Shown here one piece after another: positions 25,322 to 42,831 of a DNA stretch of 64,000 bases. Each line of letters begins with the position of its first letter. Position 1 is the stretch's first letter. Below the pieces are notes generated by a model that worked only from the letters and a program-made list of their open reading frames with translations, was not told where the DNA came from and did no database searches. The position numbers were made by a program, and so were the translations under genes. Source of the stretch: a virus; the IMG/VR virus record IMGVR_UViG_3300042474_001633, positions 96,283 to 160,282 of that record; one strand, 5' to 3'.

Positions 25322-25621
25322 GTGTCAATACTAGGGGCATTTATCGCCCATGTCAAGTTCTAGACTGTGCAGTTAGACACACCCACCTGACCACCCACCC
25401 GTCTGACTTGCCGCCATCGTCACAGAAGCGGACAAGCAAGCAAGTCCCTCGAAGAACTCCTCGAGCTGGCGGCCGGCCCTCGAGAGCTGGTTGTTTTGAC
25501 GGGGCTCTAACCTGCCACGAGACATCTAGTTGCGACGGTGGCGGATGACGGACGTGAACGGGTACAGCAGAAAGCCCCACCTGCCGTTGGGCAAGTAGGG
25601 CTTTCTTGGGGGTCGTTGTGA

Positions 25622-25864
25622 TTATTGTGCTTGCTTTATTGCTTCGGACGCATCAAGAATGGCATTTTCCATTACTTTATGCGTAGCCGTTGCGAACAAT
25701 TCGGCGAGCGTTGCTGGCAAAGTGACTAGGTACTTTAGGATTTCTACCTGCTCATCTTTCAGCAATAGTTCTGTAGTGTCGTTGCTAATTTGCTCAAGCA
25801 TTTCGGCAATAGACATACACTCGTCCGCTATCTCTGTAAGCGTTTCTGCTGGCGTTTGGCTCAT
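25622..25864 (-). CDS. Hypothetical early protein
   Basis: AAAGGGGGG SD; TTGACG-N18-TACAAT promoter; start adjusted to MSQTP. Confidence 0.65.
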   Translation of the reverse strand: MSQTPAETLTEIADECMSIAEMLEQISNDTTELLLKDEQVEILKYLVTLPATLAELFATATHKVMENAILDASEAIKQAQ

Positions 25865-25948
25865 TTTCCCCCCTTTCTGATACCTATTGTATGGGGCACA
25901 AGTACCCCACGTCAAGTTTATTTCACGTGACATTGGGCACACGCTATT

Positions 25949-26078
25949 TGTGTCGGGCGTCACACTTGCGTTTGATGTGTCGGCGGTCACGTCCTGCGTG
26001 TCGGGCGTCACACAGCCCTACTATGTGCCGGCAGTCACACTACGTGTCGGGCGTCACACTACGTGTCGGCGGTCACAC
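25949..26078 (+). repeat. Six tandem CRP/GlxR-like boxes (YGTGYCGGNNGTCAC)
   Basis: GTG-N8-CAC at 25950, 25977, 25998, 26025, 26044 and 26063. Confidence 0.75.
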
Positions 26079-26081
26079 CGG

Positions 26082-26095
26082 CGAACAAGTGTTCG
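26082..26095. promoter_or_regulatory. LexA (SOS)-like box CGAAC-AAGT-GTTCG
   Basis: Matches the Gram-positive/actinobacterial CGAAC-N4-GTTCG consensus; near-match at 26942-26955. Confidence 0.5.
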
Positions 26096-26529
26096 GTCAG
26101 CAGCGAAACCGGAGAAATTTTCCGCCGCCGGCTTCCGGTTCGCCTTCGCGGGGACATCGCAATAGCGGGGCTGCGATGTCCCCGACGACTTCTTCTGACG
26201 GTGGCGGATGACGAAGGAACTGAGTTGCTGAAGCAGTTTTGGATACACGAAGTCGGCTTTGATGTCGGGAAGCAAACATCCAAGTCAGGTTGTTGGAAAC
26301 TTTCTTGACAAACCGCATCTCACTTGCTAACACGGAACGTGCGAGGAACTCTGATGGCGTCAAACACGAGAGTCCCGCCAAAACCAGAACCAAACCAAAA
26401 ACCACGAGTGGCTGGGTGTTCTTGGGCAACAAAAAACCCGCCCTTTTGGGCGGGCTAGTTGATTTTTACCCTGCTAGTAGAACTAAAAGGCAAAAAAAGA
26501 TTACATAAGTTGTGGCTTGGGACAAAACA

Positions 26530-26643
26530 TCACCCCCAATTCTCCTTTTTCCATTTTTCCCACTCTTGTTGCTTTCGCTCTATGTAGTCACCGAGCGGTA
26601 TTGCGATAAGAATTGAGACGGCGATTATTTGATGTATCTTCAC
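26530..26643 (-). CDS. 37-aa micro-protein with a hydrophobic N-terminus
   Basis: MKIHQIIAVSILIAIPLG...; TTGACT-N17-TACTCT promoter, AAAGGGGG SD and terminator-like hairpin ~26431-26456. Confidence 0.5.
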   Translation of the reverse strand: MKIHQIIAVSILIAIPLGDYIERKQQEWEKWKKENWG

Positions 26644-27026
26644 TTCACCCCCTTTACTTTTCTATTTAGTAAAGAGTAGTAAGTGGTACGCAGATAGTCA
26701 AGCACTCACACGCACTTCTGTCAAGTTACTACCAAAGTCATGCGTCACAGGCTTTGACCACCAAGAAAGTTGACAACAGGTCGGGTCTAGCCGTTCATGT
26801 GTTCGCAATTGACGACATCACGAGTTCTTCGCCTGGGACTGAGGACACCCCCGTTTGGTAGCGGGGCTGCCAGACGGGGGTCATCTTCTACCGACGGTGG
26901 GGCATGAGTCCCTTCCGTTCGACCTGATGAACACCTGTGGGCGAACACCTGTTTGTTCCAACCGATGTGACGAACTTCATGCCGTACAAGTTGCTTTTTG
27001 TCCCATCTACGGGCTAGCGTGTTGCT

Positions 27027-40816: not shown

Positions 40817-41005
40817 ATGCGAGAACTATACCTACGTCTTGAAGTCCCCGATGAGGTTGACCCAGAGGAAGTTGTTGAGACCATGTCTCTTGATTACTAC
40901 TACGGGAATCGTGAAGTAATGGAAGAACGCTTTCCCGACCAAGACATCATGAGCAAAATCATTATTCACATAGTTAAAGGGGAAGTCAATGTCGTCGCTC
41001 AGTGA
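40817..41005 (+). CDS. Hypothetical acidic protein
   Basis: TTGACA promoter and AAGGAG SD. Confidence 0.6.
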   Translation: MRELYLRLEVPDEVDPEEVVETMSLDYYYGNREVMEERFPDQDIMSKIIIHIVKGEVNVVAQ

Positions 41006-41180
41006 AGTTAAAGAAAGTCTAGAACACGCCGTTCATGTTTTGAACGGGATTTTAGATGATGTTAAAACTGGTGTCTACACCAAAGAGCAAGCAGCGCTTG
41101 ATTATGAAACGCTGATTATGACCGAGGGTCTTGATTTCATTTCTGCCATCTTGGGTTATTCGGAATCGGAGGAAGTATGA
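40989..41180 (+). CDS. Hypothetical protein
   Basis: Coupled operon. Confidence 0.55.
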   Translation: MSSLSEVKESLEHAVHVLNGILDDVKTGVYTKEQAALDYETLIMTEGLDFISAILGYSESEEV

Positions 41181-41428
41181 AACTCAACACGCCAATCAAC
41201 AGTACACCGCGTACGGTTAAATTAATTTCGCTTCCTGGGACAAAAATGCCATGGGGAATCAGTATTTTGTTTACCGATGGTGAATCTTCCGAATCAATTG
41301 ATTGGTTCTTTGATTCAGAAGAAGAGATGCACGCAGCACAAGAGATGTGGGAAACACTGATTTATGCTGCAGGTGAATTCAATTCAGCAATTGATGATGA
41401 ACAAGAGGACGAAGATGATTCTGAATAA
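41177..41428 (+). CDS. Hypothetical acidic protein
   Basis: GGAGG SD; ATGA coupling. Confidence 0.6.
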   Translation: MKLNTPINSTPRTVKLISLPGTKMPWGISILFTDGESSESIDWFFDSEEEMHAAQEMWETLIYAAGEFNSAIDDEQEDEDDSE

Positions 41429-41651
41429 CGAAACCCGTGAAAAGGTTTGTCGTGCGTTCATGATTCTTTATGCCCGTGCATATTTCTTTAAACAGGGATA
41501 TCGAAACGGCGGTCTGCCGTGTTGGCATTGCCGATTCATTATGGCGGACAAACTAGAAGCCTTGGGTCCGTTTTATCCCGTATGGATTAACTGTACAAAC
41601 CCCGAGTATGGAGGCGTAAAGAATGCTGGCTGTAACTGGGGGGAAGTATGA
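41415..41651 (+). CDS. Hypothetical protein
   Basis: CWHC; start adjusted. Confidence 0.5.
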   Translation: MILNNETREKVCRAFMILYARAYFFKQGYRNGGLPCWHCRFIMADKLEALGPFYPVWINCTNPEYGGVKNAGCNWGEV

Positions 41652-42010
41652 CTTGCTATGACAAAGAAGAGTGCGTTGACTGCGGCGTCAACTGCATGGA
41701 AATTGATGAGTACTACATGGTTACCCATGCGTGTTGGAAACGAGCGGGAATGGACCGCTACGGGGGGATGCTCTGTATCGGCTGCCTAGAGAAGCGCCTT
41801 GGTAAACAACTGCAGCCGCGCAATTTTATAGACTGCCCGCTGAACTGGCGCAACGTATGCATCCCCGAATACGCGTCCATGCGACTGGCGTCACGACTAC
41901 TCGGCGGCCCGAATTCGAAGTGGCGTAAAGGCGCGCTCGAGGTTCTCGAGTCGATGGTCCGCGGCGAAAACGAATTGTTCGAATCCAAGACTTTAATTTC
42001 ACTTGGTTAA
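41648..42010 (+). CDS. Zn-binding phage protein
   Basis: CVDC...EYYMV...LCIGCLE.RLG. Confidence 0.7.
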   Translation: MTCYDKEECVDCGVNCMEIDEYYMVTHACWKRAGMDRYGGMLCIGCLEKRLGKQLQPRNFIDCPLNWRNVCIPEYASMRLASRLLGGPNSKWRKGALEVLESMVRGENELFESKTLISLG

Positions 42011-42095
42011 CCGAACGGTGGTGGATGACTTGACAAACAATTAATTTAAATGTAAGGTATTAAAACTAATAGCCATCAAAGAGGAGGCTTAAGCA

Positions 42096-42527
42096 ATGTC
42101 CATTGGACCAACCACCACCACGGGGGAGTCAGAAATCCGAGCCCGTGTCGAACTCACTGAGACACATTTAATTACGCGTTATTACTCCGTCTGCGAAGGA
42201 GACTTGCCAGAGAACTGGAGCAAACTCTCCCCGGATGAGCAGGCAATATTTCTCAAAATCAACTCTCGCCATATTCGAGATAATGTCGATGAAATTCAAG
42301 AACGCACGGACGGCGTCTATTTGACTTGGGACAAGAGTCATCCCCAGTGGACGGTTACCTTTACGTACACAAACACTGAAGTTGTCTCGGCACCCAATCG
42401 AGAGGCTGCAATTGAAGTTGCACGAGATGCAATCGCCCAAACATATGGCAAAGACAATCGAGACGGCGCTGCGCGCGTGCTGGGTAACGCGGACGTTGAT
42501 GTCGAGACTGGGAACTACGGAATATGA
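42096..42527 (+). CDS. Hypothetical protein
   Basis: TTGACA promoter directly after motif copy 42014; GAGGAGG SD. Confidence 0.65.
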   Translation: MSIGPTTTTGESEIRARVELTETHLITRYYSVCEGDLPENWSKLSPDEQAIFLKINSRHIRDNVDEIQERTDGVYLTWDKSHPQWTVTFTYTNTEVVSAPNREAAIEVARDAIAQTYGKDNRDGAARVLGNADVDVETGNYGI

Positions 42528-42805
42528 AAACGTTAACTCTTCCGCGGGAATTCGCGACCGGTGTCTACGTGGCATCGCCAGACACTGGGAAAGAACGCGT
42601 GTACATGTTTGAACGAATCATCGATGAGGAGTACGAAAAGGTAAACGCCTGGTTGGCTGCGCATCCTGCAGCAGGTCCTGAGGAGATACTCATCATGCTT
42701 CATGACATCGCACTCGAGTGGGCGGCTGAAGACCTTGGCTTCGACGAGCTCGACGTGCTGTCCCCTCGAGCGGCCGCTAAATTGGAAATCGCATATGCAA
42801 AATAA
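42524..42805 (+). CDS. Hypothetical protein
   Basis: ATGA coupling; 3' half is palindrome-dense. Confidence 0.55.
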   Translation: MKTLTLPREFATGVYVASPDTGKERVYMFERIIDEEYEKVNAWLAAHPAAGPEEILIMLHDIALEWAAEDLGFDELDVLSPRAAAKLEIAYAK

Positions 42806-42831
42806 AAGTATCGCTAGCCGAACGGTGGTGG

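What the first reader, a model, noticed from the sequence alone, without database searches (positions are those of the whole stretch)
25448..42818. Natural 'polylinkers': avoided palindromes are crammed just 5' of motif copies
Seen: 25448-25488 has TCGA, CTCGAG x2, AGCT x2 and GGCCGGCC in 41 bp. 26028-26150 has CCGG x5, AATT and CGCG. 28411-28487 has GGCC, CCGG x5, CGCG and AGCT. 29957-29998 has TCGA x2 and CCGG x2. 30673-30699 has GGCC and CGCG x2. 40358-40470 has ACGT, CGGCCG, AGCT, CTCGAG x2, CCGG x5 and CGCG. 41906-42011 has GAATTC, several TCGA, GCGCGC, CCGCGG and GTTAAC. 42666-42818 has CTGCAG, CTCGAG x2, GAGCTC, GCGGCCGC, CATATG and GCTAGC. The last two lie largely within ORF 3' ends. 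Some copies (26893, 35804, 39673) lack a cluster. Inference: the density looks above random, suggesting selection for decoys or sacrificial cut sites rather than just relaxed avoidance under a protein footprint.
Basis: partly seen in the sequence, partly recalled or inferred. Interest (0 to 1): 0.88.

Follow-up and report, generated by a model that had tools for sequence, protein, structure and literature searches.

The report
Restriction-site islands in a purged phage block
In a large uncultured phage, a 15-kb block of early genes has lost almost all short palindromes that restriction enzymes cut; the "polylinkers" are gaps between gene units where this purge is only partly relaxed, not decoys, but a truly palindrome-enriched coding zone lies just past the block.

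Summary
The site counts are correct. The window is the last 64 kb of a 160-kb uncultured virus.

Window 24.8-40.08 kb is a palindrome desert: 27 hexamer palindromes against 213 expected, 229 tetramers against 841. Inside it, CCGG, GGCC, CGCG and AGCT occur only in the gaps 5' of the 15-bp junction motif. Between 28.6 and 40.08 kb all 11 avoided-type tetramers lie 18-90 nt upstream of a motif copy. So the positional bias is real, and it recurs at 117 motif copies in this and related phages.

The linkers are not above random. They hold 30 avoided tetramers against 45±6 in shuffles. Observed/expected is 0.67 in the inner gap, 0.38 in the outer gap and 0.10 in transcription units.

The last two "clusters" are different. 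They belong to a 1.5-kb coding zone (41.9-43.4 kb) with 63 hexamer palindromes against 24±5 (z=8) and 38 distinct kinds. It is the genome-wide maximum and recurs at the syntenic place in two relatives. It is not tied to the motif, and its function is unknown.

The closest analogue is the first-step-transfer DNA of phage T5. The scan had already noted the same desert and junction motif in related genomes.

The parts
24750..40081 (.). Palindrome desert: a block of early-type genes purged of 12 of the 16 tetramer palindromes and of nearly all hexamer palindromes. Only GTAC, GCGC, CTAG and CATG are tolerated.
   Evidence: Hexamer palindromes 27 against 213±14, tetramers 229 against 841±25. 5-kb and 500-bp profiles. 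The 12 lowest 4-mers are all palindromes and no 3-mer is missing. The right border maps to the same orthologous base in three phages.
25534..45208 (+). Array of 19 copies of the junction motif GACGGTGGCGGATGA, all on the + strand. Starts: 25534, 26197, 26893, 27787, 28525, 29193, 30047, 30714, 32561, 33382, 34186, 35804, 39673, 40443, 42014, 42821, 43656, 44357, 45194. Usually preceded by TTCTTCT and, 31-36 nt upstream, a CGGGGCT box that often sits in a hairpin loop.
   Evidence: Homology breakpoints against relatives fall exactly at the motif edges.
25448..25488 (.). Linker 1: inter-unit gap 5' of motif 25534, with TCGA x3, CTCGAG x2, AGCT x2 and GGCCGGCC.
   Evidence: The orthologous linker in G002 also has 8 sites.
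26028..26150 (.). Linker 2: gap 5' of motif 26197, with CCGG x5, AATT and CGCG. Its left end (26028-26078) overlaps the iterons at 25946-26078; hairpin at about 26153-26186.
   Evidence: The G002 orthologue has 0 sites at 81% identity.
28411..28487 (.). Linker 3: gap between the minus-strand promoter (28373-28345) and motif 28525, with CCGG x5, GGCC, CGCG and AGCT.
29957..29998 (.). Linker 4: gap 5' of motif 30047, with TCGA x2 and CCGG x2.
30673..30699 (.). Linker 5: gap 5' of motif 30714, with GGCC and CGCG x2; GC content 0.89.
40358..40470 (.). Linker 6: just outside the desert, spanning motif 40443 (its last 28 nt hold the motif and 3' flank). Ten avoided-type tetramers lie in the 94 nt upstream.
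41900..43400 (+). Palindrome-rich 'oasis' (broader zone about 41.2-43.4 kb): five real + strand ORFs carrying 63 hexamer palindromes of 38 kinds.
   Evidence: z=8.1 against dinucleotide shuffles; 63 against 34.5±5 in synonymous shuffles. Genome-wide maximum. ORFs are coding by third-position bias. Same feature in G002 and G001.
39937..40326 (-). Gene for an HA-domain plus sigma70-region-4-like HTH protein. The right border of the desert (40081/40082) runs through it.
   Evidence: Pfam PF03457 at 3.4e-14 and PF04545 at 7e-6. Border mapping in three phages.

Best explanation
Shown. The window belongs to a 160-kb uncultured phage. A sharply bounded 15.3-kb DNA segment (24.75-40.08 kb) carries about a dozen small, self-contained early-type units: a sigma-70-like promoter, one or two ORFs of unknown function and a strong terminator. 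Most are on the minus strand. The units are separated by gaps that end in a one-stranded 15-bp junction motif. Within this segment 12 of the 16 tetramer palindromes and almost all hexamer palindromes have been removed from the units (O/E about 0.1). The 'polylinkers' are the non-transcribed gaps between units, mainly their GC-rich inner 100 bp. There the purge is only partly relaxed (O/E 0.4-0.7), so they stand out against the desert without exceeding random density. The two right-most 'clusters' belong to a separate 1.5-2.2 kb coding zone just beyond the desert border that is truly enriched in many different palindromes.

Inferred. The desert is the DNA that meets host restriction enzymes before the phage's protection is in place. 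By analogy it matches the first-step-transfer or terminal-repeat DNA of T5-like phages. What must survive that period is each autonomous transcription unit, not the continuity of the leading DNA. Sites in the gaps are therefore nearly neutral and drift, while sites in the units are lethal. No selection for decoys is needed to explain the linkers.
For: Desert and its specificity for palindromes. Confinement of avoided words to the gaps.

Graded O/E of 0.10 (unit), 0.38 (outer gap) and 0.67 (inner gap) over 71 gaps of this and related phages. Meta-plot over 117 motif copies, peaking at 23-33 per kb against a composition expectation of about 40 per kb. Linker density below shuffles.

All-or-none contrast: 0 CCGG in 12.9 kb of units against 15 in 2.3 kb of gaps. 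Purging the units would be pointless if gap sites were equally harmful, so the selective agent must distinguish units from gaps.

Sites are dispensable (7 against 0 in orthologous linkers). Linkers evolve at about the third-codon-position rate.

Promoter-like sites number 18 against 7.8±2.8 expected, with strong minus-strand terminators beside the motif.

The desert border lies inside a gene and maps to the same base in three phages. This points to a physically defined DNA segment.

Literature: T5-like phages resist R-M unless the sites lie in the FST/terminal repeat (PMC10644984). The leading-region rule holds in Autographiviridae (PMC12455610).
Against: That a cut in a gap is harmless requires rescue of the leading DNA, for example by a terminal repeat, and this is not shown.

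Relaxation is incomplete (O/E 0.4-0.7) and strongest in the GC-rich 100 bp next to the motif rather than uniform over the gap. This would also fit local shielding or functional constraint.

Promoter and terminator calls are consensus matches only. The host is unknown.
Confidence: 0.5

Rival explanations
1. Shielding. The gap DNA next to the junction motif is protected from restriction while it is exposed. A protein bound to the motif and CGGGGCT box, or extrusion of the hairpins, would do this, so sites under the footprint are not selected against.
For: Relaxation is strongest at -125..-25 from the motif and weaker further out. The motif is near-invariant and one-stranded over hundreds of copies. 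A hairpin with covarying stems and a conserved GCGGGGCT loop occurs in about 40% of copies (37 of 89 with stems of at least 6 bp, against 6 of 89 in shuffled controls).
Against: Only 5 of 19 linkers fold better than shuffles (mean z -0.6), and most copies have no long stem. Motif copies whose 5' flank appears to lie in an ORF (35804, 39673) show no relaxation in this phage or in G002. No candidate binding protein was identified.
Confidence: 0.2
2. Functional constraint. The gaps must be GC-rich and carry self-complementary elements (hairpins, operators for dimeric regulators, recurrent words such as CTCGAGCT and GCCGGC). Some palindromes therefore cannot be removed despite their cost.
For: The GC peak of 0.64-0.66 at -75..-25 is conserved across relatives. 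CTCGAGCT, GCCGGC and AGCCCCGC recur in non-redundant linkers. Cluster presence or absence is mostly shared between orthologous linkers.
Against: Over half of the non-redundant linkers (66 of 124) have no CCGG at all. One orthologue lost all 7 sites at 81% identity. GC-rich terminator stems in the same block avoid the forbidden words. Linker sequence evolves at about the synonymous rate.
Confidence: 0.15
3. First reader's reading. The palindromes are positively selected as decoy or sacrificial cut sites that absorb restriction enzymes or direct harmless cuts.
For: A truly enriched, position-conserved palindrome zone exists at 41.9-43.4 kb, with site turnover at kept density. Gap sites seem tolerated where unit sites are not.
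Against: Desert linkers are below random density, and half lack clusters. The enriched zone is coding and is not organised around the motif. GATC, avoided everywhere, is also absent from the linkers (1 in 12.6 kb across relatives) and from the oasis, so these are not places where any cut is affordable. Restriction enzymes turn over, so a few dozen sites would be a poor sink (own knowledge).
Confidence: 0.07

Closest known systems
First-step-transfer (pre-early) DNA in the terminal repeat of T5/BF23-type phages, and the 'leading region' rule in Autographiviridae (PMC10644984; PMC12455610; bioRxiv 10.1101/866236)
   Same: A contiguous block of small early genes with host-type promoters must be free of restriction sites, while the rest of the genome can carry them. 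The phage genome is large and carries tRNA genes. The early genes are mostly transcribed on the minus strand.
   Different: Here the purge is generic (12 of 16 tetramer palindromes, almost all hexamers) rather than limited to a few systems. It is relaxed in the gaps between units. Terminal repeat, two-step entry and nicks are not shown. There is no detectable kinship to T5: the nearest terminases are psiM2 and Gordonia phages at about 43%.
PeSL (promoter-early stem-loop) mobile regulatory cassettes of T4-type phages (PMC2839356; PMC4122927)
   Same: Small ORFs of unknown function, each with its own promoter and terminator, are flanked by a conserved intergenic element. Gains, losses and replacements between relatives break at that element.
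   Different: The conserved element here is a 15-bp one-stranded word plus TTCTTCT and a CGGGGCT box, not the promoter-terminator itself. It keeps one orientation whatever the gene direction. The palindrome pattern is not a PeSL feature.
Injection stop signal (iss) region of T5 (bioRxiv 10.1101/866236)
   Same: A stretch rich in palindromes lies beside the pre-early genes at the end of the first-entering DNA.
   Different: The T5 iss is a large untranslated region with long repeats, inverted repeats and DnaA boxes. The oasis here is tightly packed coding DNA with only short (4-8 bp) palindromes and no long inverted repeats.
Genome-wide avoidance of Type II recognition sites in phages (PMC6286503)
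   Same: Depletion of short palindromes as a passive anti-restriction strategy. Here GATC is absent from the whole genome.
   Different: Avoidance here is regional with base-sharp borders. It is partitioned between units and gaps and is followed by a zone of enrichment.

Membership tests
T5-type FST / leading-region restriction-site avoidance | A contiguous block is depleted of restriction-type sites while the rest of the genome is not. | tested here: met
   5-kb windows give O/E of 0.01-0.07 for hexamer palindromes inside, against 0.4-1.3 elsewhere; z=-13.7.
T5-type FST / leading-region restriction-site avoidance | The block consists of early genes read by host RNA polymerase. | tested here: inconclusive
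   Sigma-70-like sites number 18 against 7.8±2.8 expected, with strong terminators. ORFs have no Pfam family. No expression data.
T5-type FST / leading-region restriction-site avoidance | The block lies at the end that enters first, or in a long terminal repeat, with stepwise entry. | not testable with these tools
Indirect support only: the border is a conserved DNA coordinate inside a gene.
   Desert linkers: 30 against 45±6 and 11 against 15±4; O/E 0.67 across relatives. The criterion is met only in the coding oasis.
   Met in the desert. Weak or absent in the oasis.
PeSL-like shuffling cassettes | Indel and replacement breakpoints between relatives fall at the conserved intergenic element. 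| tested here: met
   16 of 154 HSP end points fall exactly at the motif edges, with none elsewhere within ±40 nt.
PeSL-like shuffling cassettes | The conserved element is itself an early promoter plus a stem-loop terminator. | tested here: not met
   Conservation is confined to the 15-mer, TTCTTCT and the CGGGGCT box. Promoters and terminators lie elsewhere in the cassette.
Integron-type cassette array (attC plus IntI) | A tyrosine recombinase or other dedicated recombinase is present in the element. | tested here: not met
   No PF00589 and no PF01797 in the 160-kb genome.
T5 iss-type non-coding repeat region | An untranslated region with long direct and inverted repeats. | tested here: not met
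   The oasis ORFs are coding. Only weak inverted repeats of 29 nt or less, none perfect, were found in 39.3-43.6 kb.

The most novel reading that the evidence does not exclude
This phage group has a two-part anti-restriction layout. The first part is a physically delimited early segment purged of palindromes. Directly behind its base-sharp border lies the second part, a positively selected 'natural polylinker': 38 different hexamer palindromes in 1.5 kb of coding DNA, kept dense while individual sites and even the genes turn over. This zone would be used by the phage as bait for still-active restriction enzymes. Alternatively it would be a place where a cut by whatever enzyme the host has is exploited, for example to release or rejoin the first-entered DNA.
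Probability: 0.12. Interest if true: 0.85.

Novelty: new variant of a known kind. Interest (0 to 1): 0.52.

Why it matters
It shows that restriction pressure can shape a phage genome at the scale of single transcription units. Units are purged to zero, the gaps between them are left nearly neutral, and the purged block ends at a conserved base inside a gene. If the reading is right, site maps alone could reveal which DNA enters first and which parts of it are expendable in uncultured phages.

The palindrome-enriched coding zone behind the block has no described counterpart. It gives a concrete, testable object for asking whether phages ever select for restriction sites rather than against them.

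Tried and rejected
- Megablast of 20 kb against the phage collection gave no match, so there is no cultured close relative.
- Rfam found only five tRNAs, so the linkers and motif match no known RNA family.
There are therefore no read depths, termini or transcripts.
- Hairpin shielding as a general cause is rejected. Only 5 of 19 linkers fold better than shuffles.
- Splitting motif copies by whether the 5' flank lies in an ORF of at least 120 aa was unreliable, because GC-rich gaps give spurious ORFs. That test was dropped.
- The mRNA-word (ATC-type) avoidance reported for another genome does not apply. No trinucleotide is missing, and the 12 lowest tetramers are all palindromes.
- An integron-like or HUH-type mechanism is unsupported: no tyrosine recombinase and no Y1 transposase.
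- No T7-like RNA polymerase and no sigma-70 region 2 was found. The polymerase control rang nowhere, so that negative is weak.
- Phage methyltransferases as the reason GTAC, GCGC, CTAG and CATG are tolerated are unsupported. No C5, N6/N4 or Dam family was found.
- Long inverted repeats or cruciforms in the oasis were not found.
- Chi-like protection by the GGTGG core of the motif was considered. The host is unknown, so it could not be tested.
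Full report
**What the DNA is.** The window is bases 96,283-160,282 of a 160,282-bp uncultured virus record judged complete. It carries five tRNA genes. It also encodes a class II ribonucleotide reductase, an SNF2 helicase and a PAPS-reductase-domain protein, and a portal protein, prohead protease and large terminase. 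There is no close relative among deposited phages. The nearest terminases are those of psiM2 and Gordonia phages at about 43% identity. The host is unknown.

**The motif.** It has 19 copies between 25,534 and 45,208, all on the + strand and spaced 0.66-0.9 kb or multiples of that. It is usually preceded by TTCTTCT. A CGGGGCT box lies 31-36 nt upstream. In about 40% of copies this box sits in the loop of a hairpin whose stem sequence differs from copy to copy. A scan of public viral contigs found many related phages with the same one-stranded arrays. Between relatives, homology begins or ends exactly at the motif edges in 16 of 154 end points. The motif therefore marks the joints at which cassettes are exchanged. 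No tyrosine recombinase or Y1 transposase is encoded. An earlier follow-up on a related genome reached the same reading.

**Checking the observation.** Taken over the whole genome, the named words are not avoided: CTCGAG has O/E 0.93, GAATTC 1.4, CTGCAG 1.8, TCGA 0.96 and CCGG 0.74. Only GATC is truly absent, with 0 copies against about 620 expected. My first meta-plot against shuffles showed no excess.

Prompted by a first-reader note on this same stretch about a "desert", I then profiled the genome in 5-kb windows. Window 24.8-40.08 kb is almost free of palindromes. It holds 27 hexamer palindromes against 213±14 in dinucleotide shuffles, and 229 tetramers against 841±25. Between 28.5 and 40.0 kb the hexamer count is 6 against 160.

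The avoidance is specific to palindromes. In the 28.6-36 kb block the twelve rarest tetramers are all palindromes, and no trinucleotide is missing. This rules out the strand-specific mRNA-word explanation that an earlier follow-up gave for another genome. Four tetramers are tolerated: GTAC, GCGC, CTAG and CATG.

**Where the remaining sites are.** Within the desert, all 15 CCGG, 6 CGCG, 4 GGCC and 3 AGCT, and 5 of 6 TCGA, lie within 180 nt 5' of a motif copy. The remaining 12.9 kb has none of the first four. Between 28.6 and 40.08 kb the only 11 avoided-type tetramers all lie 18-90 nt upstream of a motif. The positional claim is therefore true and far beyond chance.

It holds for only 5-6 of the 13 desert copies, however. 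Copies 29193, 35804 and 39673 have no sites, and the others have one or two.

These positions are the gaps between self-contained transcription units. Each gap runs from the upstream edge of a minus-strand sigma-70-like promoter, across a GC-rich spacer and the motif, to the terminator of the next unit.

**Is the density above random?** It is not.
- At -90..-18 the 13 desert linkers hold 30 avoided tetramers against 45.0±5.6 in shuffles, and 11 hexamers against 15.2±3.9.
- Over 117 desert motif copies in this and related phages, the strictly avoided words peak at 23-33 per kb at -100..-50. The background is 1-5 per kb, and the composition expectation is about 40 per kb.
- With promoters predicted for 71 gaps, O/E is 0.10 in the units, 0.38 in the outer gap and 0.67 in the inner gap.
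- Orthologous linkers in a relative with about 80% identity mostly share presence or absence of a cluster. One linker has 7 sites here and none there.
- Linkers diverge at about the third-codon-position rate.

**Why the gaps are exempt.** The contrast is all-or-none: no CCGG in 12.9 kb of units but 15 in 2.3 kb of gaps. Whatever selects against the sites must therefore distinguish units from gaps. Otherwise purging the units would bring no benefit. I favour the view that this segment is the DNA exposed to host restriction before the phage's protection acts, as in T5-like phages. Those phages are sensitive to restriction only through sites in the first-step-transfer or terminal-repeat DNA (PMC10644984; bioRxiv 10.1101/866236). 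A similar leading-region rule is reported for Autographiviridae (PMC12455610). On this view, what must survive is each autonomous early unit, not the continuity of the leading DNA.

One observation supports a physically defined segment. The right border (40,081/40,082) lies inside a real gene for an HA-domain plus HTH protein. The first palindromes after it map to the same orthologous base in three phages that are only 66-80% identical there.

Two rivals remain open. The first is shielding by a protein or structure at the junction. It fits the gradient toward the motif, but only 5 of 19 linkers are unusually structured. The second is functional constraint on GC-rich elements. It is weakened because half of the linkers have no CCGG and one orthologue lost all of its sites. 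Entry order, terminal redundancy and transcription could not be tested.

**The last two clusters are something else.** Just beyond the desert, 41.9-43.4 kb carries 63 hexamer palindromes against 24.4±4.8 in shuffles (z=8.1). Tetramers and octamers are also in excess.
- The zone holds 38 different hexamer palindromes against 19.3±3.7 expected. It is the maximum of the whole 160-kb genome: 58 per 1.5 kb, against a median of 18 and a next-best of 31 elsewhere.
- The ORFs there are real, with third-position bias and no stops in the orthologue.
- The palindromes fall in all three codon phases. They exceed synonymous-codon shuffles, 63 against 34.5±5.0.
- The close relative G002 and the distant relative G001 have the same peak (z=6.0 each) at the syntenic place. 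In G001 the genes under it show no detectable homology.
- Between this phage and G002 only 28 of 73 and 64 sites are shared. Density is kept while sites turn over.
- The enrichment has at most a weak relation to the motif, and there are no long inverted repeats.
- GATC remains absent there.

This is evidence for selection on palindrome density. Its function is unknown. Bait for restriction enzymes, or an exploited cut site, is possible but unsupported.

**Verdict.** The desert with relaxed gaps is a new variant of the known rule that first-entering DNA must be free of restriction sites. The scan had already noted it in related genomes. The palindrome-enriched coding zone is the part I could not match to anything described.

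Noticed in passing
whole genome (G000, 160,282 bp); also loci L125-L130: GATC is completely absent, with 0 copies against about 620 expected. It is also absent from 26.8 kb of relative G002 and 40 kb of G001, with 1 copy in 32 kb of G005. It stays absent in the linkers and in the palindrome-rich zone. No Dam, C5 or N6/N4 methyltransferase family was found.
   Followed up: partly
window 40081-40082, inside ORF 39937-40326 (-): The right border of the palindrome desert falls inside a real gene (HA domain plus sigma70-region-4-like HTH). It maps to the same orthologous base in three phages that are 66-80% identical, so the border looks like a physical DNA coordinate. The left border (about 24,722-24,900) lies at the 5' end of the SNF2 helicase gene.
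   Followed up: partly
window 24800-40000: Four tetramer palindromes (GTAC, GCGC, CTAG, CATG) are tolerated at near-random frequency in the desert while the other twelve are purged. CGCG is purged but GCGC is not, so the rule acts at the 4-mer level. CCGC and GCGG are also absent from 36.1-39.95 kb.
   Followed up: partly
window 25946-26078: Five iterons of about 16 nt (GTGTCGGGCGTCACAC-like), spaced 19-48 nt, lie upstream of a minus-strand promoter. They may be an operator or an origin.
   Followed up: no
window 26150-26190, 26845-26880, 29140-29175, 34130-34170: Hairpins with stems of up to 13-20 bp in different copies and phages have unrelated stem sequences but a conserved GCGGGGCT loop. 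They end 10-13 nt before the junction motif. They are present in about 40% of copies.
   Followed up: partly
window 42821-42835 and ORF 42832-43185: In + oriented cassettes the ATG inside the junction motif serves as the start codon. Several relatives show ORFs starting at offset 11 of the motif.
   Followed up: partly
window 36679-39014: An AAA_5 ATPase (245 aa) and a 532-aa protein with no family lie in the most strongly purged part of the desert. They are the best-conserved desert genes, at 40-60% amino-acid identity to the distant relative G001.
   Followed up: no
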